From positions 1-64,000 of IMG/VR virus record IMGVR_UViG_3300042563_002299: a stretch of DNA of 64,000 nucleotides. The stretch is one strand, 5' to 3'. Position 1 is the first letter of the stretch. Each line of letters starts with the position of its first letter. Positions 1,887 through 38,518 of this stretch are shown piece after piece. The notes under the pieces are model-generated. The model ran no database searches. It saw nothing but the letters and a program-made list of their open reading frames with translations, and was not told the origin of the DNA. The translations under genes and the position numbers were made by a program. This DNA is from a virus.

Positions 1887-2726
1887 TTAGTAATTCATAA
1901 TAAGTAATTCCTCACCCATGTTTTGTTTTTCACCTTTCTTGGCTGAAGCCGCTTTAGCAAACTCCTTTTTAACCCAAGTATATTGGTCCTCAGGGAACCA
2001 TTCTTTAAGAATGTCAAAGTCATAATAAGATAAAGAGAACTTACCTTGTACGTTGTGTAATACGTTCGCCAAACGCTCGTGGTCTTCTCTATCAAAGTCG
2101 TGATTTGAATAGTAGTTCTCTGTTTTCCAATAAGGTGGATCCAAATAAATGTAGGTAGTTGGTGAGTCGTACTTTTCAATGACATCAGCGAAGTCCATAT
2201 TCTCTACTTCTGTAATCTTAAGGAAATGTTCAATCCAATCAGGTTTCATTAATTTGTCCCTAAAAGTAAGATATTTTGACTTATACTTCCCTTTTAGATC
2301 AATAAAATTTGATTTTTCAGGTTTTGAACCACTGAAAACCTGTGTAAGAATATAAACGTATTTAGCCGCAACTTCATAATTACCAGGTTCTACCCTGAAA
2401 TTTTCAGCGAATAATTCAGCCTGAAAGCTGATAAATTGTTCTTTATATATTGGTGGTGTTGGTGTCTCACCCAACTTTTGACAATCGATTGCGTTAATGG
2501 CTTTCAATAGTTCGGTTGGGTTTTGAACACACTTGAAGAGGTTGTAGTTCAGCGGGTTAAAGTCATTATACACAACTTTTTTTAGGTTTGGGAACTGTTT
2601 TAGGTCCATATTAAAAAAACACCAAAACATTCCGCCAAAGGTCTCTACATAAACCTCCATATCTTTATCGTAAAATGGAACAATCCATTTACCAATTTTA
2701 CTCTTACCTCCTATATAACTTAACAT
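1887..2726 (-). CDS. dam: DNA adenine methyltransferase, Dam/D12 class
   Basis: N-terminal YIGGKS, YVETFGG motif I, YND, catalytic YLDPPY. Confidence 0.9.
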   Translation of the reverse strand: MLSYIGGKSKIGKWIVPFYDKDMEVYVETFGGMFWCFFNMDLKQFPNLKKVVYNDFNPLNYNLFKCVQNPTELLKAINAIDCQKLGETPTPPIYKEQFISFQAELFAENFRVEPGNYEVAAKYVYILTQVFSGSKPEKSNFIDLKGKYKSKYLTFRDKLMKPDWIEHFLKITEVENMDFADVIEKYDSPTTYIYLDPPYWKTENYYSNHDFDREDHERLANVLHNVQGKFSLSYYDFDILKEWFPEDQYTWVKKEFAKAASAKKGEKQNMGEELLIMNY

Positions 2727-2784: not shown

Positions 2785-2815
2785 TTTGGCAAACTCAATA
2801 ATATACTTATCTTTG
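2785..2815 (+). promoter_or_regulatory. Bacteroidota sigma-A type promoter TTTG-N19-TATCTTTG driving ncRNA-1
   Basis: exact match to the -33/-7 consensus with canonical spacing. Confidence 0.7.
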
Positions 2816-2819
2816 TAGG

Positions 2820-2955
2820 GTGTTTAACACACAGGGAATGTCAGCCCTCCCACTCGAAAGCTGACCACAAGTATTTAGTGATGTAAATACAAGGTTGATC
2901 ACCTCAATTCAGTGAATGAAATAATCTTAACCCCACTCAAAAGGTGGGGTTTGTT
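2820..2955 (+). ncRNA. structured small RNA, copy 1 (unrecognised family)
   Basis: promoter upstream; hairpins GTCAGC/GCTGAC, GTATTTA/TAAATAC, AGGT/ACCT, ATTC/GAAT; terminator; paralog at 12670-12797. Confidence 0.7.
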
Positions 2956-2956
2956 G
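2929..2956 (+). terminator. intrinsic terminator ending ncRNA-1
   Basis: AACCCCAC-TCAAAAG-GTGGGGTT followed by a T-rich tail. Confidence 0.75.
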
Positions 2957-2968
2957 TATTTATATAAT

Positions 2969-3454
2969 ATGAAACTGTTAAGAGTATTAGAATCCATTCT
3001 TTTTGAATCCAAACGTATTAAATTGAGTTCTTTCCAAGATGACGATGGAGACGTATTTAATGTGATTGCAACCATACATACTCAAGATGGCGTAAATAAA
3101 AGTTCTGTCTCAGCAACAAGGGTTGATATTGATTTAATAAATGATGTGATTGATGAGTATCAAGATATATTTTCTCAACTTACTAAATCTATCGAGGAAG
3201 ACATTAATAAAGAATCTATTTTTGTTAGAGATTCTGGTAATCGATTTGATTTTATTATAAATCCAGAATATGTTAATGGTAAATATAATTTAATGATTAC
3301 GACATCAATGAATCACCCCGAAAAATTGAACGTAAAACCGGAAAATAAGTTTGTAATATTCACAAGTGGTGGTGATACCATAATAAAAGAACAAATAGAC
3401 TTCAATAACTTTACTAAAATAGTAAGAGGGGATATAATTATTTATATAATTTAA
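2969..3454 (+). CDS. hypothetical protein (start revised to ATG 2969)
   Basis: TATTTAT at 2957-2963 precedes MKLLRVLESILFE; the longer start at 2912 would run through the ncRNA terminator. Confidence 0.75.
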   Translation: MKLLRVLESILFESKRIKLSSFQDDDGDVFNVIATIHTQDGVNKSSVSATRVDIDLINDVIDEYQDIFSQLTKSIEEDINKESIFVRDSGNRFDFIINPEYVNGKYNLMITTSMNHPEKLNVKPENKFVIFTSGGDTIIKEQIDFNNFTKIVRGDIIIYII

Positions 3455-3457
3455 ATT

Positions 3458-3619
3458 ATGGAAAACCAAAAACCAACAGAAGTTAAATGTAGAGCTTGTG
3501 AAGAAAGTAAACAAGTTCAAAATACTCAAAAATTTGTCCTTATTGGTGGTGGTCTATTTTTCTTTTTTGGGGTATATGGTATTATTTCCGCAATTAGAGA
3601 CCTTCTTTCACTAATTTAA
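3458..3619 (+). CDS. 53-aa membrane protein with CxxC (not in ORF track)
   Basis: MENQKPTEVKCRACEESKQVQNTQKFVLIGGGLFFFFGVYGIISAIRDLLSLI; TATTTAT at 3439-3445. Confidence 0.7.
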   Translation: MENQKPTEVKCRACEESKQVQNTQKFVLIGGGLFFFFGVYGIISAIRDLLSLI

Positions 3620-4542
3620 TCCCTCTCAAATTTAACAAACTGATTGATCATTAGATCACCTATAGTTTCTAATCTAAACCCTTTAGACTTAACCCTTAAT
3701 GGAATTGATGTGTCAACTTTTTTAGGCATCTTAATAGTTAATTCACCATCAGGATGTGGGACAACTAAATTACCTTCCTTAAGGTCTTGAATGTTTAAAA
3801 ACGCATTATACACAAGGTGATTACCTATCTTGTCAAAATTATCTTGTGGTTTCAAACCAATTCTAACAACTAAGTCACCATATATTCCATTTCTAAAATC
3901 TCCCATTCCTTGAAGTCGTAAGAACTGCCCGTTATCCGCCCCGTGTGGTAATGATATATCAAGGCTCTTCATTTCAGGTTTTGATCCCGTACCACTACAC
4001 ATAAAACATGGGTTAATTAATTTATGTCCAGTACCACGACAAGTATCACAAGCCATCTGTATCAACTGAACGAACATTCCTGACCCCATTTGTCTAACAA
4101 CATTACCGGATCCACCACAAGTGTTACAGGTGGTCTTATCTCCACCACCACCATTACAAGGTTCACACATGACTTGTCTACGATATGATAACGTATGTTT
4201 GTTGGCTCTATAAGAATCTAAAACACCAATATTAACGGTGATGTTTGAGGTATGTACCGGTCTTTGATTGTTGGTTTGTTTTCTATTACCAAACATCTGT
4301 GAGAACATATCACCCATATCACCAAATCCACCAAACGGATTTTTTCTTTGGGTATCATACTGTTGTCTTTTTTGTTCGTCACCAATTGTATCGTAAGCCA
4401 CGGATATTTTCTTAAAAACTTCCTCATTACCTCCAGCATCAGGGTGGTTTTCTTTCGCCAACTTTCGATAAGCTTTTTTGATCTCATCTTGAGTGGCGGT
4501 TTCCGTTACCCCCAATACCTCGTAAAAATTTTCATTATTCAT
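3616..4542 (-). CDS. dnaJ: DnaJ (Hsp40) co-chaperone
   Basis: J-domain with HPD, G/F-rich linker, four CxxCxGxG repeats, C-terminal LRLQGMG/GDL domain. Confidence 0.93.
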   Translation of the reverse strand: MNNENFYEVLGVTETATQDEIKKAYRKLAKENHPDAGGNEEVFKKISVAYDTIGDEQKRQQYDTQRKNPFGGFGDMGDMFSQMFGNRKQTNNQRPVHTSNITVNIGVLDSYRANKHTLSYRRQVMCEPCNGGGGDKTTCNTCGGSGNVVRQMGSGMFVQLIQMACDTCRGTGHKLINPCFMCSGTGSKPEMKSLDISLPHGADNGQFLRLQGMGDFRNGIYGDLVVRIGLKPQDNFDKIGNHLVYNAFLNIQDLKEGNLVVPHPDGELTIKMPKKVDTSIPLRVKSKGFRLETIGDLMINQFVKFERD

Positions 4543-4571
4543 TTATTATGAGAAATTATTATTATTGTTTT

Positions 4572-5210
4572 ATGAATTACCTTGTGGTATTGTTTAAAAA
4601 TAAGGAAAGAAAGAAAATAATCAACCGATTTAAAACCTTTGATCGAGCTGATGCCTTTTATAATAAAATGGTGGAGGAAAATAAGTCGGTAATTTTTGAA
4701 ACAATGGTTGAAAATGCTAGACCTTGTGATTATGAACTTTGTTTAATTAAGAGACAAGACGATAACTTTGAAAAGTTATTTGTTAAAGATGATTTTGGTA
4801 GACAAATATTAGTAGATCTTGATGATCCCGAATATAAAATAATGAGGGTGTCCAAATATAAAGTCCCTGAAAAAATATTTGATGTTAACCAAAATAAGAA
4901 GATAACGACTGAGGAATTTATAAAAAAATATCTACCAAAAAACACAATAAAGTTAATATCGAGATTAAATAACAAAGTTGCCGTTCAAAACGACGATAAC
5001 GTTAAATTATTTTCATTAAAAGATGAGGATGAATCTCGTAGATTTTTAGAGAACCTTAATGATTATTTGATTGATAATGGGAGGGGTGATGCAATTATTG
5101 TTATTGAAACAAGTAAACCACAAAAAAAGTATCTGTATGATATTCTATCAGGAATGGGTTTTAGTAAACAATCACTTTACAGAAGGTCCACCACCTACAA
5201 ACCTAGATAA
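4572..5210 (+). CDS. hypothetical protein
   Basis: ORF divergent from dnaJ; start could be 4548 or 4572. Confidence 0.7.
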   Translation: MNYLVVLFKNKERKKIINRFKTFDRADAFYNKMVEENKSVIFETMVENARPCDYELCLIKRQDDNFEKLFVKDDFGRQILVDLDDPEYKIMRVSKYKVPEKIFDVNQNKKITTEEFIKKYLPKNTIKLISRLNNKVAVQNDDNVKLFSLKDEDESRRFLENLNDYLIDNGRGDAIIVIETSKPQKKYLYDILSGMGFSKQSLYRRSTTYKPR

Positions 5211-5492
5211 GAATCTTTTAAATAGGCTAACAGGTTTTTTTGGTTCTTCAAACTTATTGTAATCAATACTTTCTTCATGTATAAAGACGTGTTCAACACC
5301 TGACATGTCGATTGAAAACTTCTTATGTCCTCTATCTATTTTTCTAAAGTTACTTTGTACTTTTTTAAAGTCATCGTCATCCAATTCAAAGACACAAATC
5401 ATTTTTCCGTCAGGAAATAGGGTTTGCATAGCATCTGTTATCAATGCTAAATTTTCTAATACCCCATCAGTACTTTTTTTATCTTCTTCCAT
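5172..5492 (-). CDS. hypothetical protein
   Basis: 106 aa ORF in an overlapping operon. Confidence 0.7.
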   Translation of the reverse strand: MEEDKKSTDGVLENLALITDAMQTLFPDGKMICVFELDDDDFKKVQSNFRKIDRGHKKFSIDMSGVEHVFIHEESIDYNKFEEPKKPVSLFKRFLSRFVGGGPSVK

Positions 5493-5659
5493 AACGTTAG
5501 TTTTTCCTTAGGTTTTGCAATATCTTCTTTTCTGAAGTCTTTCAAAGATTCGATAATTCTTTGTTTCTCTTTGTTTAATTCCGATCTATCTTTTTCAATC
5601 TCGTTCTTCAACCAGTCTATCGCTTGTTCCTCTCGTGTTGATAACTTCTTCTCCATCAT
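5456..5659 (-). CDS. hypothetical coiled-coil protein
   Basis: 67 aa ORF overlapping its neighbours. Confidence 0.65.
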   Translation of the reverse strand: MMEKKLSTREEQAIDWLKNEIEKDRSELNKEKQRIIESLKDFRKEDIAKPKEKLTLWKKIKKVLMGY

Positions 5660-6029
5660 CTATTTTTTCTTCAAGTATGTCAAATTTTAAAGATTGTAAA
5701 TTATCAAGTTTTTCACTTTCAAATATTTTCTTTAATTCATCAATCTTTTGTTTTAATAATTTTTCTTTCATTTCAATCTCTTTGTTATAAGCGACTATGT
5801 TTTTAATATTCTCAACCGTATTATTTAGTTGTTTTTCGTCAAACTCACTAACAAATGAAAAAAATCTAAACCCATCATTTACCTTATCATTTTCAACAAT
5901 TTTGTCTTCTTGGACAAATCTTTTAGGTATTTTCCAATGATTAGGAAATTCTATGTCAATAGTAAGATAATGTTTCAATTTTCTTACTGAAACTAAAAAC
6001 TGAAATATATCTTTAAGTTCGTTATACAT
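5595..6029 (-). CDS. hypothetical protein
   Basis: 144 aa ORF. Confidence 0.7.
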   Translation of the reverse strand: MYNELKDIFQFLVSVRKLKHYLTIDIEFPNHWKIPKRFVQEDKIVENDKVNDGFRFFSFVSEFDEKQLNNTVENIKNIVAYNKEIEMKEKLLKQKIDELKKIFESEKLDNLQSLKFDILEEKIDDGEEVINTRGTSDRLVEERD

Positions 6030-6030
6030 A

Positions 6031-6225
6031 TTATATTATGTTTGTTATAAAATAAGTTATAAGATAAGAAATAAAGAAGTAATTGGATATTTTTTCGATT
6101 CTATTATAAATAATTTGTTTCGGGTCATCGCTAAATATACCGGCAATAACTTTAAAAAGTAAGTTTACCACGAATACACACGATAAAACAAATCCAAACA
6201 ATAGTAAAATATCCAATCCCTTCAT
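6031..6225 (-). CDS. small two-TM membrane protein
   Basis: two hydrophobic segments in 64 aa. Confidence 0.65.
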   Translation of the reverse strand: MKGLDILLLFGFVLSCVFVVNLLFKVIAGIFSDDPKQIIYNRIEKISNYFFISYLITYFITNII

Positions 6226-6231
6226 AGTTAA

Positions 6232-6402
6232 TTATTTTTTTCTTTCTTCAAGAATCTCACCTCTTAATTGTTGTATAAGATTTTTTAAATCTTGTGATGT
6301 TTTTCTAGCTCTTGTTCCGGCACTTTTATTACCAGCGTAAAACTTAGTAACATCTACACTCAATTGTTCAGTAAGGTCTTTAATTTTTTCTAAAGTTTCC
6401 AT
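6232..6402 (-). CDS. histone H1-like nucleoid protein, Hc1 family (not in ORF track)
   Basis: METLEKIKDLTEQLSVDVTKFYAGNKSAGTRARKTSQDLKNLIQQLRGEILEERKK; GNKxAGTRARK signature. Confidence 0.85.
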   Translation of the reverse strand: METLEKIKDLTEQLSVDVTKFYAGNKSAGTRARKTSQDLKNLIQQLRGEILEERKK

Positions 6403-6465
6403 GTTAACGTAAAAAATTAATGTTTATTAGGTATAAAATAATTACCCACATTGACTTTGTAAAGG

Positions 6466-6939
6466 TTATACGATTAGATTTTTATCCAAAGTTTTGTATA
6501 TGTTGTAGATTAAATCCAAGTCAACCTGAGTAAATGGTTTGTCTCTGTTAAATAAGTCATTGAAGAATACATCTATTGAGTTTCTAACGTCGTCTTTATT
6601 TTGGGTATAATAAATCTCCATAAAAAGATTAAGGAAGTACTCGTAGTGTTCCCCTTTGGGTTCGAATTTTATGTTTTCTTTTTGGAAATTTTCTATTGTT
6701 TTGTTCCAACACCAATCAAAATGGTTTTGATTGTCTTCTGATGTCATTTTAACTTTAGTTTCGTTAAAGTTGTCATCATAACCTAAATAAGTGGTTTTAA
6801 TCAACAGATATAAACTATAGGAGAGATCGTAATATAATTCCATCTTCTCCGGTATAATATTATTGATCCTGAACCAGATGTCAACTTGTTCAGGATCAAG
6901 ATTTTTTGTTATGTAATTAAGAAAGTTATCCATAGTCAA
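6466..6939 (-). CDS. hypothetical protein
   Basis: 157 aa ORF. Confidence 0.75.
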   Translation of the reverse strand: MTMDNFLNYITKNLDPEQVDIWFRINNIIPEKMELYYDLSYSLYLLIKTTYLGYDDNFNETKVKMTSEDNQNHFDWCWNKTIENFQKENIKFEPKGEHYEYFLNLFMEIYYTQNKDDVRNSIDVFFNDLFNRDKPFTQVDLDLIYNIYKTLDKNLIV

Positions 6940-6981
6940 TTTACTATGAACAAATTATAAATGAAGACCGGCTATTGTAAA

Positions 6982-8427
6982 TTATTGGGTCTTTCTATTA
7001 TAACCCATTAGCCCTTGAATTCTATCAAATTCTTCGTTTAGTTTTGTAACTTGTTTTTCATTTGTGCTCTCCTCTAACTTATTCAAAACTGATTGCGATG
7101 TCTTCTTTCCTCTTTTTGATTTTAAAGAACCTCTTTCAGTTTTTTCACCAGCTTGGTCAACCGGTTGAGGTTGTCTTTTGTAAGAAGCATCTTGTTGTTC
7201 TTGACCGTATAGATTGTCTTTAAAGTTTTTAAAGAATTTTTCTCCAACCTCACTTGGTACTACGTTACCTAAAGCGTTTCCGTCTTTATCTACTTGAGCA
7301 TTACCAGTTTTAGCCGAACCTTTTAAATTCGCTTCAATCCACTCATCGTTAGGTTTAATCTCATCATATACCAAGTTTGTTTGACCAGGATATGAGAACG
7401 CATCAATATACTCGTCAACAGCATCTGAAGGCGTATATTTCTTTCTATTACCTTTTTCTAACCCCCCATTTTCAGTTGGGAACTTTTGAGTTTCTTTCAT
7501 TTCGTACTTAGATGCTTTATCGGAAGCACCTTTAAGGTAGTCAGTCATTTTTTTAGCAACACTTTTTAGATAATCTTCATTTTCTTTTCCGTCTTGTTTG
7601 TAAGCTTTTTCATATTCTTTGTACCCTTTAGGTTCTTTCATTTTGAATGAGTTCTTTTCCTCATTTACCATTTTTTCAATAAATGAAATTAATTCATTTT
7701 CGGTGAATATTAAACTCTCACTAACTTTATCTTTACCTTTCAATCCTTGCTTTGATTTTTTAGCATCCTTGGCTGCGGATTTCATAGGTTCTTTTTTATT
7801 ACCATCTTTGTCCAAATCTAAAAAATCAGGTTTGCTACCTTCACTGAATTCATTTTTTTCAAATTCAACTTCATATAAAGGTTCGTCGTCTTCTTCTTTC
7901 ATATTACGTAATCTTTTGAAGTCGTCGGCGTCTAACCTACCGTTTTTGTTTTTATCTAGTTTGTTTTGTTTACCATAAAGTTTTTCATCAATCTCCTCTT
8001 CCTGTTCTTCCAATTTGTTCCAATCACTTTCACTATCTAAATCAATTTCCTCCCACTCATCATCATCATCTTCGGTTTCATCATCATAGTCTGCTCTTAA
8101 CAAATCTTCTAATTCGTCTTTAGACATTTTTTTAAGATTCATTTTACCAAATCTTGGGTGATCAGTATCCATACCACCAAGTTCCATAACTTCGTTTTTT
8201 GAACCACACTGTTCACAAACCTCACCATCACCTTCGGTCATTTCGTTACCACATTGTTCACAAACTTCACCATCACCTTCTTGTACATAATCTGTTGGTC
8301 CACCTGGCGGATCAAAAGGTACCTCTTTATCTAAATTAAGTTTAGTAAGGATCTCGTCTGCCTTTTCGTTAATATTTTCTAATAAGACCTTTTCAAATCT
8401 TGAGCGGATATATTCTGTTCTATTCAT
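6982..8427 (-). CDS. acidic late protein, possibly head internal/scaffold-like, with two CxxC knuckles and two EF-hand-like loops
   Basis: EGDGEVCEQCG twice; LDKNKNGRLDADDF and LDLDKDGNKKE; TATAAATA at 8441-8448. Confidence 0.6.
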   Translation of the reverse strand: MNRTEYIRSRFEKVLLENINEKADEILTKLNLDKEVPFDPPGGPTDYVQEGDGEVCEQCGNEMTEGDGEVCEQCGSKNEVMELGGMDTDHPRFGKMNLKKMSKDELEDLLRADYDDETEDDDDEWEEIDLDSESDWNKLEEQEEEIDEKLYGKQNKLDKNKNGRLDADDFKRLRNMKEEDDEPLYEVEFEKNEFSEGSKPDFLDLDKDGNKKEPMKSAAKDAKKSKQGLKGKDKVSESLIFTENELISFIEKMVNEEKNSFKMKEPKGYKEYEKAYKQDGKENEDYLKSVAKKMTDYLKGASDKASKYEMKETQKFPTENGGLEKGNRKKYTPSDAVDEYIDAFSYPGQTNLVYDEIKPNDEWIEANLKGSAKTGNAQVDKDGNALGNVVPSEVGEKFFKNFKDNLYGQEQQDASYKRQPQPVDQAGEKTERGSLKSKRGKKTSQSVLNKLEESTNEKQVTKLNEEFDRIQGLMGYNRKTQ

Positions 8428-8451
8428 TTCTAATTTTTATTATAAATATCT

Positions 8452-9216
8452 TTATTTTTGTCTTTTTCTAATTTCTTGAAGGACAATCTCTGAAATATAC
8501 TTTTTATCAATCCCAAACCTACCCGAGACACTGTCAATCGCATTTTGTACTGATTCATTTTCAAATATCTTCAGTGCTTTTATGTCTCCTTGATTACAGT
8601 ATGGGAATTTAGTACACTTTTTTTTGACTTGTACTCTTTTAGCTCCCGGCATATATTTTGTTGATGCTCCCTTCCAATTCTTTTTACTCATGGATTTCGC
8701 CCATATTGCTGGTTGACTATATTCTCCTGATGAAGATGCTCCCGTAGCCTCTTTAGTTTCAGCCTTTGTTGTTTCACCATCAGTTAGTCCTGTCTCACCA
8801 TCACTTTCTAATTGTTCTCTAACGGTTTTCACACCTTTTACTATATCACCCTTTGTTGTTGAGAATAACGGCATTGAGTATCCTCCGGCTGACGCGGCCC
8901 CCATAGCTTCGGTATTTTCTTCTTTTTTTGTTGTTTTATTATCAAGAATTGCGGTTAAAAACTCTCTTAATTCCTCAGAATTTTTAAGGTATTCTTTAAT
9001 CTTACTTCTTATCTGATTATTTGATAATTTTTTATTTTTTATCAATTTGTAGATTTCACCGATATCTTTTTTGTCTTTCAAAAAATCTAAATAATGTTTT
9101 GTTTCCTCATTGACATTAGCCTTATCAATTGCCTTGATAACATCTCTTCTTGCTTGAGGTTCTGAAGCCAAGTTACTTGTAACGGCATCCTTAAGTTTTG
9201 TGATTACATCTTCCAT
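8452..9216 (-). CDS. hypothetical protein
   Basis: 254 aa; repeated EAxGAxSxGxYSxP motif and CTKFPYC. Confidence 0.75.
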   Translation of the reverse strand: MEDVITKLKDAVTSNLASEPQARRDVIKAIDKANVNEETKHYLDFLKDKKDIGEIYKLIKNKKLSNNQIRSKIKEYLKNSEELREFLTAILDNKTTKKEENTEAMGAASAGGYSMPLFSTTKGDIVKGVKTVREQLESDGETGLTDGETTKAETKEATGASSSGEYSQPAIWAKSMSKKNWKGASTKYMPGAKRVQVKKKCTKFPYCNQGDIKALKIFENESVQNAIDSVSGRFGIDKKYISEIVLQEIRKRQK

Positions 9217-9461
9217 TACGCGTTTCTAAATTTTTGTTCCCAAAATCCTCTTTGTTGGTACATTACCGTAAAGTATTCTTGGAATGATTTTATTATTATA
9301 TCTTTAACGTTTTTTTTAAGCCCTCCTCTTTGCATTTCTTTTGAAATGGTATCCAATAATTTGGTTTCAAATTGTTTTGCGGTATTTGAACCCATAAAAT
9401 CTTTAATCTCTTTTCTTATTAAAGTTTCAATTTCCTTCTTGTCTGATGATGTAAGTGCCAT
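9216..9461 (-). CDS. hypothetical protein
   Basis: 81 aa, stop/start overlaps with neighbours. Confidence 0.7.
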   Translation of the reverse strand: MALTSSDKKEIETLIRKEIKDFMGSNTAKQFETKLLDTISKEMQRGGLKKNVKDIIIKSFQEYFTVMYQQRGFWEQKFRNA

Positions 9462-9874
9462 TATTTAAAAAAAACAATATACGTTAATGGTGCAACAATT
9501 GCTCCTGATATTATATTGAAGATCGTGTTTTTAGTTTTTAATCTTTTATTATCGTCAGCTAATCTTTCGTTTTCTTCTTTATAGATTTTTACTTTTTCTT
9601 CGGTTTCAGAAATAATTTCTTTACTCAAAGAATCTTTTTCAACCCATGTTTGATTTATTTTGTTTAAGTAATCAATCTTATTAGTTAATTCAACAATTTC
9701 TTTCTTATCTAATTTTGATATTTCTTTCAATCTATCATAATCATTTAGTTCCAATAACATTTTTTGGGCAACACTATAAGGGATACTCATTTCTGAAGTA
9801 TCCTTAATTCCTTTTTGAGCATTTAAGGTTAACGAAATAAAACCATAAACTAAAACTAAAAATATTTTTTTCAT
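9461..9874 (-). CDS. signal peptide + coiled coil + C-terminal TM protein (spanin-like candidate)
   Basis: MKKIFLVLVYGFISLTLNA signal, heptad-rich middle, hydrophobic C-terminus. Confidence 0.5.
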   Translation of the reverse strand: MKKIFLVLVYGFISLTLNAQKGIKDTSEMSIPYSVAQKMLLELNDYDRLKEISKLDKKEIVELTNKIDYLNKINQTWVEKDSLSKEIISETEEKVKIYKEENERLADDNKRLKTKNTIFNIISGAIVAPLTYIVFFK

Positions 9875-9875
9875 A

Positions 9876-10229
9876 TTAAAAATTGTATCTACTTCTTAGC
9901 AAACTATCGATTTGTTTTTTGTCCGCATTTTTTATTTCTTCTTTCTTCTGAGTGTAATAGTTGTTTACCTCTTTTCTTTCAACCTTGATTTTTGAAATTT
10001 TTTCGTCTATCTCAGTTATCTTGTTTTGGTAAGTTTGAATTGAATCACTTAAACTTATTTGAAGATTTTTCATTTCCTCAATATGTTTATCAATTTGTTC
10101 TAACTTATATTTGTTAAGTTCTGACATGTCTGGTGCAGGCGTTAAAACTCGAACCAATAAATAAACGAAAATCACCCCCAGTAACCCAAGAGTGATATTC
10201 TTCCAATTTTTTGTTATAAACTCTTTCAT
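9876..10229 (-). CDS. N-terminal TM + coiled-coil protein (i-spanin-like candidate; start revised to 10229)
   Basis: MKEFITKNWKNITLGLLGVIFVYLLVRVL then coiled coil; ATGA overlap with the upstream gene. Confidence 0.5.
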   Translation of the reverse strand: MKEFITKNWKNITLGLLGVIFVYLLVRVLTPAPDMSELNKYKLEQIDKHIEEMKNLQISLSDSIQTYQNKITEIDEKISKIKVERKEVNNYYTQKKEEIKNADKKQIDSLLRSRYNF

Positions 10230-10819
10230 TCTTCTACGTCTTCTTGTCTTGAAGCCACGACTTTGCTCCATTTAGTTTTAAATTTTTCGTAATACGATCG
10301 TAATTTACCAATCATACCCATATAATCTTGGTCAACCTTAACCATATCACCTTTAACGTATAAACCATTTGGTTCGTTGATTGAGAAAAAGAATTCTAAA
10401 TCCAACTCTAAAATCTTACCACTCCATTCAACGTTCTCAGGATAAACATTTAAATCACCAAAGTCGGTTAACTCAGCAACTTCATTTCTAAACTCATCAA
10501 CACTTGATGTTAACGCGTTTTTTTCGTCAGTAGTTAATTGTAAATCCGCTTTTGTTTTACCATGTAGAATAATAATATTATTAATGATCCTATATGCCTT
10601 TTGTTTGTCTTCCTTATTAACAATCCCATTAGTGTCTTTTTCAGGTTCCTCTGTTGTTTTAACGCCCTCAATGTCAATTTCTTTTGTGTCCACAACATTT
10701 TGTTCTGTAAGTAAACCATATTGTTTACGAATGTCAGTAGTATTACTTTCATTCATATTACCAGCCAAAGCTCTTCTTGATGCTTCAACTAACATTTTTA
10801 TTTCATCGTAATTATTCAT
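10226..10819 (-). CDS. hypothetical protein
   Basis: 197 aa ORF. Confidence 0.75.
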   Translation of the reverse strand: MNNYDEIKMLVEASRRALAGNMNESNTTDIRKQYGLLTEQNVVDTKEIDIEGVKTTEEPEKDTNGIVNKEDKQKAYRIINNIIILHGKTKADLQLTTDEKNALTSSVDEFRNEVAELTDFGDLNVYPENVEWSGKILELDLEFFFSINEPNGLYVKGDMVKVDQDYMGMIGKLRSYYEKFKTKWSKVVASRQEDVEE

Positions 10820-11405
10820 TATCTAATAATTTGTTAAATTTTTCAAAATCAAATGCCGGACTTACATCGGTGGCAAATTCGTCGAAGTTTGATCTTGTTA
10901 TGATTCCCAAAAAAGATTCAACACCCCTAACTTTGGTATTGTGTCCCACACATCTGAGTTTGATTCCATGTTTTTCTGACAATTCTTTACAAAGTTCCGC
11001 AGTTTTTTCTAACTGAATGTCTGTATAAGGATGCCAAAAAAAGTAATCTCTCCACTTACGATCAACAACTTTCTCTTTATAAATATTACCAATCCAGTTT
11101 ATGTGATGTAGTTTTAATGGTTCTTTTTCTAACCAACCCAAATTTTCTAAAGAAATAACAATTGCCTTCCCATTAATTCTATCACTATTGGTGAATCTAC
11201 CATTAGTTGTGTCATTTAAAAGGTTAATAACTTTACCATCTCTACCCACAATATAGTGTGGTAATCTCACTGGTTTACCACCAAATCTATACTTTACCGA
11301 TACCATGTAATCAAACAAGGTTCTTGATGTGTGCGTCAACACAATTTGTACCTTCTTAAGATCTGTCTCAAACTTGGTATCAATAACATTATCAATAATA
11401 TCCAT
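10812..11405 (-). CDS. N-acetylmuramoyl-L-alanine amidase (Amidase_2-like), endolysin candidate
   Basis: IVLTHT, PHYIVGRDG, ISLE, YTDIQ, VGHN, DVSPAF motifs. Confidence 0.75.
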   Translation of the reverse strand: MDIIDNVIDTKFETDLKKVQIVLTHTSRTLFDYMVSVKYRFGGKPVRLPHYIVGRDGKVINLLNDTTNGRFTNSDRINGKAIVISLENLGWLEKEPLKLHHINWIGNIYKEKVVDRKWRDYFFWHPYTDIQLEKTAELCKELSEKHGIKLRCVGHNTKVRGVESFLGIITRSNFDEFATDVSPAFDFEKFNKLLDNE

Positions 11406-11407
11406 AC

Positions 11408-12601
11408 TTATTTTTTATAAGTTAAAATTCTTTTTTCAATCTCTTCGAGTTTTATGTTAAAAATTCTTTCATCAACTTCGTTTCCTTGATCATCGAATAT
11501 TGTTCCGTTGTCATTAACGTAATACTTGAAGGGTATTTCAAGGGGTACCTCGACCTCTTTAATCACTTCTACAGGAATTTCCCTAACCACCTCAACTATT
11601 CTATCCACAGGGACTTCAACTATTCTATCCACAGGGACTTCAACAATCCTTTCGACCTCAACAATTTTTTCAATAATTTCAGGTTCGACTTGGGGGGTGA
11701 CTTGGGGGGTGACTTGGGGGGTGGAATTAGCAAAATAACTTTCAGGAATTTCTATTTCATCATAGAATGGGTGTTCTTCCTCGTCCTCTTCTTCTTCCTT
11801 TTTCCCAATGTTTTTAAACGCTTGATTTGTTGCAATAACCAAAGCAATTGCCAAAGGGTCAAATACAAAAATTAATGTTAATATAAAAAAGTTCGCAGTT
11901 TTTTTAATATCCCAACCAGTAATTTCGCTTAAGTATTTAATTGCTCCCAATTCACCTGATTCAATTTCGGTGGAGGTTAAATTTAAAACTTCTAAATCTA
12001 AACTTGTAATACTATCATTTAACGACTCAATTTTTTTAGATATTACGTCCCTATTTACTTGAGCAACTTTTAACTGATCTTCAAACGCTCTTCTATTACC
12101 CCCATTAGCTCTTGTAACGACCTGTCCTGTTGTTCTGTCGATAGATTGGGTAGTTGTGTTATTAGATAAGGCATTTCGTAAGTTAGTGATGTCTTTATCC
12201 AAACCTTCTTTCTCACCTTGATAGTCCAATTTGATTTCTTCAAATCTTTCTTTCTTTACTTCAATATTTTCTATCTTTTTATTGTTAATCTCAAGCCCAG
12301 CAATGTTCTGTTGGAAACCTGTAGATAATAATCCGTAAATACCTATAGATGTAAGAACTGATAACACAAATAATGCTGTTGTAAGGTAAATCTTGAGTAG
12401 TCCGTATATTTCCTTCCATTTATCATGGAGATATGTCGCTATAGCAATTTTAGAAATCTCTAAAAAAGATCCCATAATAATCACGGGTAATGCTACCGCC
12501 GAGAAAATAATGGATAGACCTACTACACTATAGTAGGCTGCGGTTCCTGATAAACCTATTGCACAAAAAAGTAAAAACCAGGGTAAAAATTTCTTATTCA
12601 T
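11408..12601 (-). CDS. multi-TM coiled-coil membrane protein with TPQV and EVPV-type repeats
   Basis: 3 N-terminal TMs, coiled coil, FVFDPLAIAL TM, repeat tail; TATAAATA at ~12619. Confidence 0.75.
   Translation of the reverse strand: MNKKFLPWFLLFCAIGLSGTAAYYSVVGLSIIFSAVALPVIIMGSFLEISKIAIATYLHDKWKEIYGLLKIYLTTALFVLSVLTSIGIYGLLSTGFQQNIAGLEINNKKIENIEVKKERFEEIKLDYQGEKEGLDKDITNLRNALSNNTTTQSIDRTTGQVVTRANGGNRRAFEDQLKVAQVNRDVISKKIESLNDSITSLDLEVLNLTSTEIESGELGAIKYLSEITGWDIKKTANFFILTLIFVFDPLAIALVIATNQAFKNIGKKEEEEDEEEHPFYDEIEIPESYFANSTPQVTPQVTPQVEPEIIEKIVEVERIVEVPVDRIVEVPVDRIVEVVREIPVEVIKEVEVPLEIPFKYYVNDNGTIFDDQGNEVDERIFNIKLEEIEKRILTYKK
11687..11722 (+). repeat. perfect 12-bp tandem repeat GACTTGGGGGGT x3
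   Basis: read directly; encodes TPQV x3 on the minus strand. Confidence 0.95.
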
Positions 12602-12664
12602 TTAAATTGTTTTTAATATATAAATATCAAAATAATCAAATGGGGCGATAATGGAAACCCTATA

Positions 12665-12696
12665 AAAAATAAAACCCCCACCGGTACCAGTGGGGG
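12665..12696 (-). terminator. intrinsic terminator ending ncRNA-2 / sigma transcript
   Basis: CCCCCACUGG...CCGGUGGGGG followed by UUUUAUUUUUU. Confidence 0.85.
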
Positions 12697-12797
12697 AGTG
12701 TAATTTCATTCTACCGTATAGATAGAATTGAGGAGTTTCACCCTGGTGACTTCAGGCACCTTCCGCCGAGTTGTATGGGTAATCTCGGTTCAACCCT
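12670..12797 (-). ncRNA. structured small RNA, copy 2 (unrecognised family)
   Basis: minus strand AGGGUUGAA CCGAG-loop-CUCGG CGGAA GGUG-loop-CACC AGGG-loop-UCCU CA AUUCUAUC-loop-GGUAGAAU GAAAU + terminator; same layout as copy 1. Confidence 0.7.
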
Positions 12798-12798
12798 T

Positions 12799-13599
12799 TT
12801 ATAAATAATCAAACAACTCTGAAGATTCATTTCGTAATCTACGAAGTGCCTTCTCTTTAATCTGACGAACACGTTCTTTAGTTAAACCAAAGTCAGATCC
12901 AATGTCTTCCAAAGTACGGGGTGTACCGGTAATCCCAAAATAATCACCAACAATTACTCGTTCTCTGTCATCCAAACCATTCAAAAGACCCATAAGTTTG
13001 TCTTTAAGAACATCTTTGGTATTGAACGCCGCGTCAGGAGCCAAGGCATCTTTATTTTCAATCATATCAACCAATGTATCACCTTCATCGTTAATATTCA
13101 TATCAAGGTCTATAATTGAGGGTAGTGTTGAGAATTTGTCATCCAATTTCTTACCTGTTTGTTCAACCTCTTTCTTCGCCTTATGTAAATCCTGAACCAC
13201 ATTAACTGGTAGACGGATTGTTCGTGAGTTGTCGTTCAGTGATTGAATAATTGATTGTTTAACCCACCACACAGCGTAAGAAATGAAACGTAGGTCTTTA
13301 TGCCAATCAAAGTTTTTAATTGCTTTCATCAAACCTAAATTACCTTCAGCAATAAGATCCGACAAGTCCAAACCTTGATTTTGGTATTGTTTTGCCACCG
13401 TAATAACAAAACGTAAGTTTCCTGTCAAAAGCTCTTCCTCAATTTGTTGTTTCTCAATCAAGGTAAGATCGTTTGACTTCATTCGTGTTGCCAACAGACG
13501 TTCGCGTTCTGCTGTCATTACCTTAATTTTTCTAATGTCTTTAAGGTAATGGTAAATCTCATCCTGATTAATAGGTGCTCCTGTGTTTTTGTCCTTCAT
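12799..13599 (-). CDS. rpoD: RNA polymerase sigma-70 factor, RpoD/SigA family (Bacteroidota-like, lacking region 1.1)
   Basis: NLRFVITVAKQY, DLIAEGNLGL, FISYAVWW, RTIRLPVN, region 4 HTH TLEDIG..LTKERVRQIKEKAL. Confidence 0.92.
   Translation of the reverse strand: MKDKNTGAPINQDEIYHYLKDIRKIKVMTAERERLLATRMKSNDLTLIEKQQIEEELLTGNLRFVITVAKQYQNQGLDLSDLIAEGNLGLMKAIKNFDWHKDLRFISYAVWWVKQSIIQSLNDNSRTIRLPVNVVQDLHKAKKEVEQTGKKLDDKFSTLPSIIDLDMNINDEGDTLVDMIENKDALAPDAAFNTKDVLKDKLMGLLNGLDDRERVIVGDYFGITGTPRTLEDIGSDFGLTKERVRQIKEKALRRLRNESSELFDYL
12800..12807 (-). promoter_or_regulatory. TATTTATA motif overlapping the sigma stop codon, positioned to drive ncRNA-2
   Basis: same motif found before many late genes; here no ORF follows, only the RNA. 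Confidence 0.55.
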
Positions 13600-35531: not shown

Positions 35532-38518
35532 TATTGATTACAAAATATTTCAAATTCAATTCCTATGTTTATTTGGAAGTCGTCAAAATTAGGAATACAG
35601 TTATTGTTAAATACAACCACATTTTCATTGTCCACATCAATATTATAACTATAACCTGATGTTAGTAAATTATCTAAAGCGTCTCCCAAAGCATTAACCC
35701 ATTGAGTGTCGGTAGGATATTGACTTGGTCCAATTCCACTGAAGAATCCGTATTGTTGTATTAATACTCCGTTTTGTCTTATATCAACATACCAACTTGA
35801 TGAAACCGTATTTATCGAACACACGGTTGAGTTTAAACCATTTTGAGTAAAGAAGTTTTGTAATGTTTGAGTTAAAACAACACCAAAAGAACTAATTAAC
35901 GGATCACTATTCCAAGGATATAAACCACAAATAACTTCTTGTACAGGACAATCTAAAACATAAAGTTGTGTTGATAAAGTACAAGGTTTACAAGGTACCG
36001 GTATAAATCTACAACCTTCTTGTCTTCTCCAAACAAATTTTTGTCTGTGTAGAACAGAATTTTCTAACCTAACACCAGTGTTCCATATTGTTGTAGCAGG
36101 AACCATTTGTTCTACCATTCTAATCCAATAGTTACCCATACCATTCACATAATCAATCATCGTTTGATATGTGAAATTATCATTTTCAATACCCGCTAAT
36201 TTTTGTGATTCCAAGTATCTCCAATAAATTGATTGTAATGTGGGGTACCCACCTGTTTTACCATCAGTGATTGTTTGTCTATTTCGGACATTAATCATAT
36301 TCCTCCAAAACGTTTGAGCAAACTCAAAGAATGTTTTTTGTTTTGGTTTCGGAACAATTGTTGTCCAATCAATACCACCCAATTTAGGATATGGGTTTGG
36401 TATATCACAAGGTGTTGGTGGTGTATAGAATAACCCTTGTTCAGGTATTGGGAAGTTATATTGACGAGACATTGTCCATACATCATAAACCAAACCTTGA
36501 GCCGGGTTCATCATAATATCAACATTCTTAACATTCAATGTTAAACATTCTTCCCCCACCTCATAATAAGAATTAAATCCACCCTCAAAACTTGTTCTTA
36601 AAGTTGGGTCTGAATCAGTCCAACTCTTTTTATTATCGGCAACTCTTCTTAACTTAAACCCTAAGTTCAAATAAGGGAATTGTCTGTATCGTTGTAAATA
36701 TTCTTCACCGTAATTAAATGGTAATAGTTGAGTTTGATAATTTGGGTTATTACCTGTAAATAATAAATTTGTTGGTACCGCAAACTCAGGCATTCTGTGT
36801 TGTGGTGTGGACTCAAACCATCCCCCACCAATTTGGAAGTAATATGTTTCAGATGCGGTTGGCATTTGAGGACAACCGAACGCGTCAACAGGATAATCAC
36901 CTCTATCCGTTAAAACATTAGAATTAACCGAAAATGTTGTGAATCCCGTATATTGAACCCCTTGAATGTAGAATATATTATCACCTTGTAATACGGGTAA
37001 TTGTAAACTTATCGTACCACCTGTAATTTGGAAGTATTGTTTTTCAAACTCCCTCATGTTGATTCGTTGATCCGCAACATAGATGTATTCATTAAAATCA
37101 ATCAACGCTTCAGGTGCACCAACCATTCTTAATAAACACTCAATAGATTTTCTTGTACCTTTTGATTTAAAAAGGTAAGCTGAGTTTAATATTAAGTTCC
37201 TATAGAACTGATAGTTGATCTCTTCAGGTGTTGGTCCGATTTGTAAACCAGGGAATGTATTAGGTTGTGTTGAGAATACCGCCTGTAGTAACTCCTCATT
37301 GGATATTGGTGAGAAATTTGTGGTCCAACCCAAAGTTTGAGCCAAGTTTTTCAATAATTGTGATGGTATATCGTTCTGTACGGTATAATGAACACTATTA
37401 ATATTACCTAAAGCCGATATGAAAGATTTTGTCTCATCGAAACTTCTTCCATAAATCTGTAATAATTTTTCGAATTTTTGGTCAGGTGTATCAAACTCTT
37501 TTAATGCTCCTGTTGTAAAAAATCTTGAAATTAAGTTTGTATTATATTGATCTAAATTGATCGCAAAGTCATTAATCTGTGTTAAGTAGTTATCAAAACT
37601 TGATGTGATGATATCTAAGTTCCAAATACCCGCTTTAGGGAATGTTGCATACTCACTTGAGATCGCAAATGAACCATCTTCCAATTCTTTTGGTACAACA
37701 AACTTAGCTGTGTAAGCCGGTGTTATTTGTCTGTTAAGCAAAAAGTTCTCAACCGGATCAAACTTAAGATTAAACACTTTATTAACCTCAAAGTCATTTG
37801 GTCTAATTACCAAATAATCATAAGATATTTGATTACCACTAAATGGATTTCCATCAACAATGATTTTTAAACTAGTTGAACTACTATCGGTAGGGTATAA
37901 ATAATTAAGAGGGTATTGTTGTCCGTTAATGAATAGAATATATTTTTTATACTCTAATTTCATATTTCTTAATATTGAAACCTCATTTTCACTAAACCTC
38001 ATGTTGGTTTCAGCGTTTTGTGAGTAATCAATATCAAAAGGGTTTCTTATTGAAGATAATAAAATCTCTAATGTTGTATCATTTTCAATAGAATCATAAC
38101 TTATATTGAATGCGGTTTCTTGGTTAATGAATTTGTCCGTTTGTGGTGCAATTTCTAAACCAGCGGGAAAGAAGTTAATTATCTTTGTTATTGAGACCGA
38201 AAATCTTTTAACTAATGAACCATATTGGGTAAAGTTTGTTACCTGACTTAAATCGTAATTAGGATAAACTCGGTAGTTTGCCGCTAATATTTCTGCGGAC
38301 TCTACGTTTGTATCAATATTAATAGATTCTAAATTGATAGGATCAGAAAATGTACCTATCGTAAAAGTTCTATTCTGTTTTTCGGTAATGTTTGTTGTGA
38401 AATTAAAATTCGCTTGTGTCAAACCTCCGCCAGCAACAAGTTGTACCCCAACTAAATTGTTAGAGAATTGATTTGCTGCACTACTTTGAGGCGGACAAGT
38501 AAATTTCTGTGTTGCCAT
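35531..38518 (-). CDS. baseplate wedge/tail structural protein
   Basis: LAQTLGW..YRNLILN..LFKSKGTRKSIE motif typical of baseplate wedge proteins; context. Confidence 0.6.
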   Translation of the reverse strand: MATQKFTCPPQSSAANQFSNNLVGVQLVAGGGLTQANFNFTTNITEKQNRTFTIGTFSDPINLESINIDTNVESAEILAANYRVYPNYDLSQVTNFTQYGSLVKRFSVSITKIINFFPAGLEIAPQTDKFINQETAFNISYDSIENDTTLEILLSSIRNPFDIDYSQNAETNMRFSENEVSILRNMKLEYKKYILFINGQQYPLNYLYPTDSSSTSLKIIVDGNPFSGNQISYDYLVIRPNDFEVNKVFNLKFDPVENFLLNRQITPAYTAKFVVPKELEDGSFAISSEYATFPKAGIWNLDIITSSFDNYLTQINDFAINLDQYNTNLISRFFTTGALKEFDTPDQKFEKLLQIYGRSFDETKSFISALGNINSVHYTVQNDIPSQLLKNLAQTLGWTTNFSPISNEELLQAVFSTQPNTFPGLQIGPTPEEINYQFYRNLILNSAYLFKSKGTRKSIECLLRMVGAPEALIDFNEYIYVADQRINMREFEKQYFQITGGTISLQLPVLQGDNIFYIQGVQYTGFTTFSVNSNVLTDRGDYPVDAFGCPQMPTASETYYFQIGGGWFESTPQHRMPEFAVPTNLLFTGNNPNYQTQLLPFNYGEEYLQRYRQFPYLNLGFKLRRVADNKKSWTDSDPTLRTSFEGGFNSYYEVGEECLTLNVKNVDIMMNPAQGLVYDVWTMSRQYNFPIPEQGLFYTPPTPCDIPNPYPKLGGIDWTTIVPKPKQKTFFEFAQTFWRNMINVRNRQTITDGKTGGYPTLQSIYWRYLESQKLAGIENDNFTYQTMIDYVNGMGNYWIRMVEQMVPATTIWNTGVRLENSVLHRQKFVWRRQEGCRFIPVPCKPCTLSTQLYVLDCPVQEVICGLYPWNSDPLISSFGVVLTQTLQNFFTQNGLNSTVCSINTVSSSWYVDIRQNGVLIQQYGFFSGIGPSQYPTDTQWVNALGDALDNLLTSGYSYNIDVDNENVVVFNNNCIPNFDDFQINIGIEFEIFCNQ

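What the first reader, a model, noticed from the sequence alone, without database searches (positions are those of the whole stretch)
2785..12807. Two paralogous structured small RNAs of an unrecognised family (2820-2955 + and 12670-12797 -)
Seen directly: two intergenic segments 10 kb apart on opposite strands share one layout. Copy 1: AGGGAAU GUCAGC[CCUCCCACUCGAAA]GCUGAC CACAA GUAUUUA[GUGAUG]UAAAUAC A AGGU[UGAUC]ACCU CA AUUC[AGU]GAAU GAAAU n6 terminator. Copy 2: AGGGUUGAA CCGAG[AUUACCCAUACAA]CUCGG CGGAA GGUG[CCUGAAGU]CACC AGGG[UGAAAC]UCCU CA AUUCUAUC[UAUAC]GGUAGAAU GAAAU n6 terminator. The first two stems differ almost completely in sequence yet still pair. Loop and linker motifs are kept (AGGG, CCCA, UGA in two loops, CCUCAAUUC, GAAUGAAAU). 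The 5' GGGA/GGGU can pair with loop UCCC/ACCC, a covarying pseudoknot. Each copy has its own promoter (host-type for copy 1, TATTTATA for copy 2) and terminator, and the downstream genes have separate promoters. Inference: a trans-acting phage ncRNA family, possibly expressed as early and late versions (protein sponge, RNAP/sigma modulator, anti-defence decoy or ribozyme). I do not recognise it as a known family.
Basis: partly seen in the sequence, partly recalled or inferred. Interest (0 to 1): 0.9.

Follow-up and report, generated by a model that had tools for sequence, protein, structure and literature searches.

The report
Phage knotted RNA paired with a protein
The two flagged stretches are real, related small folded RNAs of a family absent from Rfam; one always sits just upstream of a small, possibly RNA-cutting, protein gene in giant lake-water phages, so it is probably that protein's RNA partner, though this is untested.

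Summary
Both RNAs exist as described: a 5' pseudoknot and four helices, followed by a terminator. Rfam 15 gives no match. Relatives are common in about 290-kb freshwater Bacteroidota-type jumbo phages. Base pairing is kept by compensatory changes in both subfamilies: 26 distinct "type 2" sequences near the phage sigma gene, and 11 "type 1" sequences.

Copy 1 (type 1) is half of a conserved cassette: host-type promoter, 5' hairpin, RNA unit(s), terminator, TATTTAT, then a 161-aa gene (window 2969-3454). In a protein-anchored search, 12 of 12 full-length homologues of that gene had the RNA directly upstream. The RNA occurs without the gene, but the gene was never found without the RNA. The protein model gives weak, repeated RelE/ParE/RegB-like matches.

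Best reading (about 0.4): an antidote or regulator RNA for a small putative ribonuclease, laid out like a type III toxin-antitoxin locus. It is not a member of the known type III families.

Copy 2 follows the sigma stop codon with no partner gene beside it. Its proposed TATTTATA promoter is simply the last sigma codons.

This scan had already flagged the family on other genomes.

The parts
2785..2815 (+). Host-type (Bacteroidota sigma-A-like) promoter of copy 1: TTTG-N19-TATCTTTG
   Evidence: Pattern match. The extended motif GTTTTGGCA...TATCTTTGTA is conserved upstream of type-1 RNAs in relatives.
2820..2830 (+). 5'-terminal hairpin GUGU-UUA-ACAC at the predicted transcript start
   Evidence: Folded. 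Relatives have different but still pairing hairpins at the same place, for example GUGAU/AUCAC and GUGUG/CACAC.
2833..2922 (+). Copy 1 (type-1 unit). Pseudoknot 2834-2837 with 2848-2851; P1 2840-2845/2860-2865; P2 2871-2877/2884-2890; P3 2892-2895/2901-2904; P4 2907-2910/2914-2917; tail GAAAU 2918-2922.
   Evidence: Sequence read. Model R2, built without window sequences, gives 52 bits, E 1.6e-9. Covariation of the subfamily.
2929..2958 (+). Intrinsic terminator of copy 1 (AACCCCAC...GUGGGGUU plus a U-rich tail)
   Evidence: A hairpin followed by a U-rich tract is read after the last unit of the type-1 arrays and after most variant-type loci; in a few of them the script scored no stable hairpin.
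2957..2964 (+). TATTTATA motif 4 nt before the start codon of the partner gene
   Evidence: Sequence. The motif is kept between terminator and ATG in the relatives whose downstream sequence was read. Whether it is a promoter was not tested.
2969..3454 (+). Partner gene, 161 aa (P0006). No Pfam, NCBIfam or PADLOC family. Invariant E13, H37, R51, D66, S83, D88, T112, G135, D136, E141, N147-K150.
   Evidence: RNA linkage. AlphaFold2 model pLDDT 76, with weak RelE/ParE/RegB-like matches.
12703..12798 (-). Copy 2 (type-2 unit), starting 1 nt after the sigma stop codon (12801-12799). Pseudoknot 12796-12793 with 12780-12777; P1 12788-12784/12770-12766; P2 12760-12757/12748-12745; P3 12743-12741/12733-12731; P4 12728-12721/12715-12708; tail GAAAU 12707-12703.
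   Evidence: Sequence. Model R1 gives 114 bits (the window copy was one of the 26 training rows). Covariation.
12665..12696 (-). Intrinsic terminator of copy 2 (CCCCCACUGGUACCGGUGGGGG plus a U tract)
   Evidence: A terminator follows within about 7 nt in all 26 distinct type-2 sequences.
12799..13599 (-). Phage sigma-70-family gene whose 3' untranslated region is copy 2
   Evidence: Pfam Sigma70_r2, r4 and r1_2. About half of the 80 related sigma loci hold a type-2 unit within 1.5 kb downstream.

Best explanation
Shown: the two RNAs belong to one family of about 90-100-nt RNAs. The fold is an H-type pseudoknot (the 5' tail pairs with the P1 loop), three further hairpins, and conserved CAA and UGAAAY joints.

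Shown: copy 1 is the RNA half of a conserved two-part cassette. The order is host-type promoter, stabilising 5' hairpin, one or more RNA units, intrinsic terminator, then a small protein gene (P0006 family).

Inferred: host RNA polymerase makes the RNA from the moment of infection. The terminator keeps RNA in large excess over any read-through protein message.

Inferred: the folded RNA binds the protein and neutralises or times it. The protein is probably a RelE/RegB-like endoribonuclease. This is how the RNA antitoxin of a type III toxin-antitoxin locus acts on its nuclease.

Inferred: copy 2 is a diverged paralogue made as the 3' end of the phage sigma-factor message. It is either a second, sigma-coupled supply of the same kind of RNA or an orphan antidote-like RNA with another partner.
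For: 1. The family and fold are real.
2. Every P0006-family gene found by HMM at E<=1e-3 among the roughly 310 loci then held lies next to a type-1-family RNA, and in nearly all of them the RNA is directly upstream.
3. Protein-anchored test: 12 of 12 full-length homologues fetched from IMG/VR have the RNA on the same strand (R2 E from 5e-20 to 1e-3), in most ending some 35-55 nt before the start codon. The 13th is a C-terminal gene remnant.
4. In five near-complete genomes the RNA and the gene are present together in three and absent together in two.
5. Asymmetry expected of an antidote: RNA without the gene exists. L062 keeps the RNA beside a 25-aa deletion remnant, L269 has no gene nearby, and no type-2 unit has a recognised family member beside it. 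No intact gene without the RNA was seen.
6. The RNA subtype tracks the protein subfamily.
7. The gene order promoter-RNA-terminator-protein, the pseudoknot, and tandem whole or half units in relatives (L297, L278, L172, L213, L241) match the type III layout described in PMC5086642.
8. The protein model gives repeated weak RelE, ParE, BrnT, HigB, YoeB, YafQ and RegB matches: Z 2.8-4.1 in PDB, and a RegB-named phage protein in BFVD at probability 0.93.
Against: - No binding, toxicity or nuclease activity is shown.
- The fold matches are all below the level at which a shared fold can be trusted (Z under 5). Foldseek against PDB found nothing.
- The window copy is a single unit of about 90 nt, not a 34-45-nt tandem array.
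- A TATTTAT motif sits between the terminator and the gene. It may be a separate promoter, unlike the single-promoter operon of type III systems.
- Copy 2 has no partner gene beside it, and one near-complete genome (G004) has type 2 but no P0006 homologue.
- One type-1 unit (L269) has no P0006-like neighbour.
- The linkage could reflect cis regulation rather than binding.
Confidence: 0.4

Rival explanations
1. Cis-acting leader. The RNA plus terminator is a transcription attenuator. It sets how much transcription from the early host-type promoter reads into the P0006 gene, possibly through the protein binding its own leader. It has no antidote role.
For: The RNA is nearly always on the same strand directly upstream of the gene, with a terminator between them. 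The distance from terminator to start codon is short.
Against: No conserved alternative (antiterminator) pairing with the terminator was seen by eye. There are 6-12 unpaired nucleotides between P4 and the terminator. The RNA persists where the gene is deleted (L062) or absent (L269, type 2). Type-2 units lie behind stop codons, upstream of unrelated or convergent genes.
Confidence: 0.2
2. Independent trans-acting small RNA. This would be an early, nuclease-resistant structured RNA that acts on a host or phage target, for example as a decoy or sponge for a host defence or RNA-binding protein. Its linkage with P0006 would then be synteny only.
For: It has its own host-type promoter, a 5' hairpin and a terminator, which together make a compact stable transcript. 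Its distribution is sporadic: 0 to 2 copies per related genome. Units and half-units are duplicated in tandem. Type 2 occurs without the protein. One type-2-like copy lies in a bacterial-looking contig of a Crocinitomicaceae MAG.
Against: Synteny alone does not explain 12 of 12 linkage across proteins only 27-55% identical, while the neighbouring genes vary. It also does not explain why the RNA subtype tracks the protein subfamily.
Confidence: 0.2
3. RNA-processing or stability element. This could be a self-cleaving ribozyme or a nuclease-blocking fold that cuts transcripts or protects their ends at gene boundaries.
For: Units start 1-6 nt after stop codons in many loci. Head-to-tail units occur without an intervening terminator (L297, L278). 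Junction nucleotides are highly conserved.
Against: No match to any ribozyme family in Rfam, even at E up to 10. This idea does not explain the strict coupling to one protein family.
Confidence: 0.08
4. Small-molecule riboswitch that controls the terminator directly behind it.
For: The fold is compact and pseudoknotted with conserved joints, and a terminator follows directly. Tandem arrangements are known for riboswitches (general knowledge).
Against: There is no expression-platform overlap. The downstream genes are unrelated to metabolism or transport and differ between the two types. Many copies sit in 3' untranslated regions. No Rfam riboswitch matched.
Confidence: 0.05

Closest known systems
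Type III toxin-antitoxin systems (ToxIN, CptIN, TenpIN, AbiQ/antiQ)
   Same: The gene order is promoter, structured RNA, Rho-independent terminator, small protein gene. The RNA is pseudoknotted, and relatives carry tandem RNA units. The RNA can survive without the protein, but the reverse was not seen (PMC5086642).
   Different: The RNA unit is about 90-100 nt with four helices, and in this window it is a single copy, not a 34-45-nt repeat array. The protein matches no ToxN, CptN or TenpN model, and its weak fold matches point to RelE/ParE/RegB instead. The cassette is phage-borne with an early host-type promoter. A possible second promoter (TATTTAT) lies before the protein gene.
Phage pseudo-ToxI RNA mimicry (phage PhiTE, PMC3475682)
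   Same: A phage carries a pseudoknot-type RNA, and its repeat number varies between isolates.
   Different: PhiTE's RNA mimics a host antitoxin and has no phage-encoded toxin beside it. Here the partner gene is in the phage. The family was not found in 151 Flavobacteriales or 151 Crocinitomicaceae genomes sampled, apart from one MAG contig.
RelE/ParE-superfamily toxins and T4 RegB endoribonuclease
   Same: The partner protein's model aligns weakly to many members over residues of about 28-120. RegB is a phage nuclease with this fold that acts on mRNAs.
   Different: The scores are too low to assign the fold. The known members are neutralised by protein antitoxins or have none, not by an RNA. 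P0006 is about 70 residues longer than these toxins.
Stand-alone phage or Bacteroidota sRNA genes (promoter, structured RNA, terminator)
   Same: A compact transcription unit with a host-type promoter and an intrinsic terminator.
   Different: The strict coupling to one protein family, and the 3'-UTR placement of the second subfamily.

Membership tests
Any Rfam 15 family | Score at or above the family's gathering threshold | tested here: not met
   There were 0 matches in the whole window. E-value scans of both segments gave only noise at 9-17 bits against thresholds of 35-100 bits.
Type III toxin-antitoxin system | [quoted passage not shown] | tested here: met
   Window layout: 2833-2922 RNA, 2929-2958 terminator, 2969-3454 gene. 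The same order holds in 12 of 12 protein-anchored loci.
Type III toxin-antitoxin system | Antitoxin is a tandem array of short (34-45 nt) direct repeats | tested here: not met
   The window has a single unit of about 90 nt. Relatives have 2 full units or 1.5-2.5 units of about 57-92 nt.
Type III toxin-antitoxin system | Single promoter drives RNA and toxin as one operon | tested here: inconclusive
   A host-type promoter lies upstream of the RNA. A conserved TATTTAT motif lies between the terminator and the ATG, and its role is unknown.
Type III toxin-antitoxin system | Toxin belongs to the ToxN/AbiQ, CptN or TenpN endoribonuclease families | tested here: not met
   No Pfam, NCBIfam or PADLOC family matched. 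No PDB sequence match. No ToxN-like chain appeared among the listed fold matches, which is itself inconclusive.
Type III toxin-antitoxin system | RNA binds, is processed by, and neutralises the toxin | not testable with these tools
   This needs co-expression, pull-down and cleavage assays.
RelE/ParE superfamily (including RegB) | Shared fold at a trustworthy score | tested here: inconclusive
   VIA-align Z 2.8-4.1 for at least 15 RelE/ParE/BrnT/HigB/YoeB/YafQ entries and RegB. BFVD row 'site-specific RNA endonuclease': probability 0.93, TM 0.43-0.49. Foldseek against PDB found nothing at E<=0.001.
Riboswitch / transcription attenuator | Mutually exclusive pairing between the sensor and the terminator | tested here: inconclusive
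   No conserved competitor helix was seen by eye in the sequences. No formal search was run.
tRNA / tmRNA | Detected by ARAGORN | tested here: not met
   0 genes in the window.

The most novel reading that the evidence does not exclude
A new class of RNA-antidote and nuclease pair. Jumbo phages would carry a RelE/RegB-like ribonuclease made from a late-type TATTTAT signal and bearing the shared N-terminal tag, so it might be packaged and injected. It would be held in check or timed by a four-helix pseudoknotted RNA made early by host polymerase. A second RNA paralogue, co-transcribed with the phage sigma factor, would couple antidote supply to the switch to late transcription.
Probability: 0.2. 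Interest if true: 0.8.

Novelty: new variant of a known kind. Interest (0 to 1): 0.66.

Why it matters
If the RNA does neutralise or time a phage ribonuclease, three things follow. RNA-antitoxin logic, so far known from three bacterial defence families, would extend to a different protein fold and a much larger RNA. It would show the logic being used by the virus rather than against it. It would also give a tractable handle on host shut-off in uncultured freshwater jumbo phages. Independently of function, this is a well-supported structured RNA family that could be added to Rfam, with more than 40 distinct sequences, covariation in every helix that varies, and clear subfamilies.

Tried and rejected
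- **Spurious model hits.** Hits at 37957-38045 (-), 58536-58629 (-) and 53981-54041 (+) lie inside long ORFs or lack P1 and the pseudoknot. They are not further copies.
- **Downstream protein as a search anchor.** A first scan with the single 161-aa sequence found no loci in viral contigs. It worked later with an alignment.
- **Joint alignment of both types.** The MAFFT alignment of types 1 and 2 (A3) misaligned P1, P2 and P4. No joint model was built, and the third model slot is unused.
- **Host homologues.** Models R1 and R2 were run over 151 Flavobacteriales genomes and R1 over 151 Crocinitomicaceae genomes. Only the one MAG contig matched. The other hits (23-25 bits) lack the pseudoknot or helices.
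- **Idea that the MAG copy belongs to a host RNA-protein system.** The 256-aa gene behind it has 5 homologue clusters. It was not found in the other 400 Bacteroidota genomes sampled. Its only fetched homologue locus (L309) has no RNA. The idea was dropped.
- **Expression.** One freshwater metatranscriptome (contigs only, 8% of words) holds parts of the region. It includes a contig that joins two RNA units head to tail, and a variant-type end. This shows presence in an RNA library, not a discrete transcript.
- **No cultured relative.** Nothing matched in the phage collection by DNA. The sigma protein is below 60% identical to any record.
- **Fremin et al. 2023 (PMC10690425)** screened viral sequence collections for structured RNAs, but no supplement is held, so overlap with this family could not be checked.
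- **Protein Atlas.** No usable hit.
- **Stop-codon read-through or frameshift signal.** Rejected by reading the sequence: the frame after the sigma stop closes again after two codons.

Full report
**Observation.**
- Copy 1 is 2833-2922 (+). Copy 2 is 12798-12703 (-) and begins one base after the stop codon of a sigma-70-family gene (12799-13599; Pfam regions 1.2, 2 and 4).
- Each is followed by one of the two strongest intrinsic terminators in the 11-kb region.
- The paired motif CCTCAATTC...GAATGAAAT occurs only at these two sites in the window and in the whole 81.5-kb virus record. It occurred in none of 100 shuffles.
- CheckV rates the record 28% complete, so the phage is of jumbo size.
- Single-sequence folding is no better than shuffled sequence for the cores (z -0.86 and -1.08). 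The structure therefore had to be tested by comparison.

**Not a known family.** Rfam 15 gave no match at gathering thresholds in the window. E-value scans of the two segments gave only noise. ARAGORN finds no tRNA or tmRNA.

**Relatives and covariation, type 2.**
- A pattern scan of IMG/VR returned mostly chance or coding matches, plus four true relatives.
- Anchoring on the sigma protein gave 80 loci from phages of roughly 270-300 kb. About half hold a copy-2-like ('type 2') unit within 1.5 kb downstream.
- There are 26 distinct type-2 sequences. On their alignment the pseudoknot plus four helices are 96.8% paired, and nine pairs change on both sides. No shuffle out of 500 does as well, and slid registers drop to 32-51% paired.

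**Relatives and covariation, type 1.**
- Anchoring on the Dam-type methylase next to copy 1, plus a P1-based pattern scan, gave copy-1-like ('type 1') units.
- Eleven non-window sequences are 94.9% paired, and all six P2 pairs covary.
- A model built from those eleven finds copy 1 at 2832-2922 with 52 bits, E 1.6e-9.

**Are the two copies kin?**
- Each subfamily model finds the other window copy at exactly the right coordinates, but only at 11-12 bits (E 0.39 and 1.5).
- The type-2 model aligns all four helices of a type-1 unit at E 0.007.
- Between types, P1 (CCGAG/CUCGG against GUCAG/CUGAC) and the pseudoknot (GGGU/ACCC, GGGA/UCCC, AGGA/UCCU, AAUGG/CCAUU) differ on both strands and still pair.
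- I read them as two subfamilies of one architecture. This rests on shared layout and motifs more than on score.

**Anatomy and variation.**
- Type-1 arrays usually have a Bacteroidota-type promoter (TTTG-N19-TAnnTTTG; window 2785-2815). A short 5' hairpin follows, and its sequence varies while its pairing is kept.
- Relatives show two full units head to tail (L297, L278) and one or two extra pseudoknot-P1-P2 half-units (L172, L213, L241).
- Variant 3' domains occur (L150, L314-L317; L181, L199, L214).
- One type-1 unit lies directly behind a stop codon without a promoter (L269).
- Of the 26 type-2 sequences, 17 follow the sigma stop codon directly. Four follow the stop codon of another inserted gene. 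Four have a host-type promoter 11 nt upstream and one has it 69 nt upstream.
- All 26 type-2 units are followed by a terminator, and a hairpin with a U-rich tract is read after the last unit of the type-1 arrays and most variant-type loci.
It is not kept in relatives that keep the RNA.

**Distribution.**
- The window and the rest of its record hold exactly these two copies.
- In five near-complete relatives, the models find one type-1 copy in one genome and one type-2 copy in another. Two further genomes carry only the divergent variant type, which the models miss.
- At least one sigma locus has a plain terminator in place of the RNA (L070). The element is therefore accessory.

**The link that changes the reading.** Earlier notes of this scan on other genomes said the same RNA sits beside small RNase-like genes. 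I tested that here.
- The gene behind copy 1 (2969-3454, 161 aa, P0006) has 41 homologue clusters and no named family.
- An HMM of the family was run against six-frame ORFs of the roughly 310 loci then held. It hit only genes lying next to a type-1-family RNA, nearly always with the RNA directly upstream. One hit is a 25-aa deletion remnant in L062, where the RNA is intact. The variant-type loci hit weakly (E 0.003-0.009).
- In the five near-complete genomes, RNA and gene are present together three times and absent together twice.
- In an unbiased, protein-anchored scan of IMG/VR, 12 of 12 full-length homologues (27-55% identical) have the RNA on the same strand, in most ending some 35-55 nt upstream. 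Each has the promoter, a terminator and a TATTTAT-type motif. The thirteenth locus is a C-terminal remnant.
- The RNA subtype tracks the protein subfamily.
- The RNA occurs without the protein (L062, L269, every type-2 unit). An intact protein gene without the RNA was not seen.

**The protein.**
- The AlphaFold2 model has mean pLDDT 76.
- Foldseek against PDB finds nothing.
- The wide structural search gives only Z up to 4.4. However, at least 15 of the 50 listed rows are RelE, ParE, BrnT, HigB, YoeB or YafQ toxins or T4 RegB, aligned over residues of about 28-120.
- In the viral library a protein named 'site-specific RNA endonuclease' matches at probability 0.93.
- This is a hint, not an assignment.
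- A 189-aa gene that precedes type-2 units in two relatives is a possible distant relative. The hhalign probability is 83%, but the match covers only the N-terminal 65 columns, which include a tag shared by many proteins of this phage (scan note e1-6107073).

**Mechanism.**
- The layout, the pseudoknot, the tandem units in relatives and the antidote-like asymmetry resemble type III toxin-antitoxin loci as reviewed in PMC5086642.
- Membership fails on two defining features: the RNA is not a short-repeat array, and the protein is not a ToxN, CptN or TenpN.
- My reading is therefore 'works like', not 'is a member of', at about 0.4.
- Rivals are a cis attenuator of the gene (0.2), an independent trans-acting RNA or decoy (0.2), a processing or stability element or ribozyme (0.08), and a riboswitch (0.05).
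- Copy 2 has no partner beside it, and one genome has type 2 without any P0006 homologue. Its role is the least settled part.

**Other checks.**
- One type-2-like copy (66.7 bits) lies in a bacterial-looking contig of a Lake Mendota Crocinitomicaceae MAG. This hints at the host group.
- The family was otherwise not found in the sampled Flavobacteriales and Crocinitomicaceae genomes.
- One freshwater metatranscriptome holds the RNA in contigs, including a two-unit form. This is weak evidence of expression.

Noticed in passing
L304:3020-3128 (MAG contig JBILIY010000085.1, Crocinitomicaceae): A type-2-like RNA whose first 37 nt (pseudoknot strand through P1 and CG) are identical to copy 2, but whose P4 differs and which has no obvious terminator. 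It lies in a contig with bacterial genes (T9SS PETase-like hydrolase, TonB-receptor-like, comM/Mg-chelatase), upstream of two unknown ORFs. This hints at the host group or at transfer of the element.
   Followed up: partly
L062:1433-1803 (-): A close relative keeps copy-1 RNA, promoter and terminator intact. The partner gene is reduced to a 25-aa ORF that joins its N- and C-terminal ends (internal deletion).
   Followed up: partly
L096, L098, L099, L101 from about 3799; L103, L128, L147 downstream of sigma: The sigma-downstream hotspot of relatives holds other promoter-driven, ORF-free structured segments. They begin ...CACAAACAACGGGUAAAGGUCAGAAUGAUAUC... or ...AAACGACGAnAGAUAU...GUUUGUCGGG.... 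One lies next to a 150-aa or 189-aa small gene. These look like further RNA-protein cassettes.
   Followed up: no
L079:3799-3870 and L109 about 3990-4060: A short conserved element, ...GUCAGAAUACAUUUAGAACAACCACGGUCAGAAUACCGUGGUUUUUUU, behind sigma or behind a host-type promoter. It is a possible separate small RNA.
   Followed up: no
window 2957-2964 and relatives: A TATTTAT(A) motif lies 4-8 nt before the start codon of the partner gene in the relatives read. If it is a -10-like promoter element, the message would be nearly leaderless.
   Followed up: no
window 2969-3010; L269 11372-12805: Many small genes near these RNAs start with a similar amphipathic peptide (MKLLxVLKxII.E or MNLKESIKRILKEE), although the rest of each protein differs. 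L269 has an array of such genes around its RNA unit.
   Followed up: no
window 2828-2926, RNA-seq run X1: A metatranscriptome contig (depth 9) joins position 2926 back to 2828 with one extra G. That is a two-unit tandem form of the RNA from a related phage. Another contig switches at 2866 to the variant 3' domain.
   Followed up: partly
window 1887-2726 (-) and 3616-4542 (-): Copy 1 lies between a D12-class N6-adenine DNA methyltransferase gene and, beyond the partner gene, a full DnaJ-like chaperone gene (J domain, zinc-finger domain, C-terminal domain).
   Followed up: no
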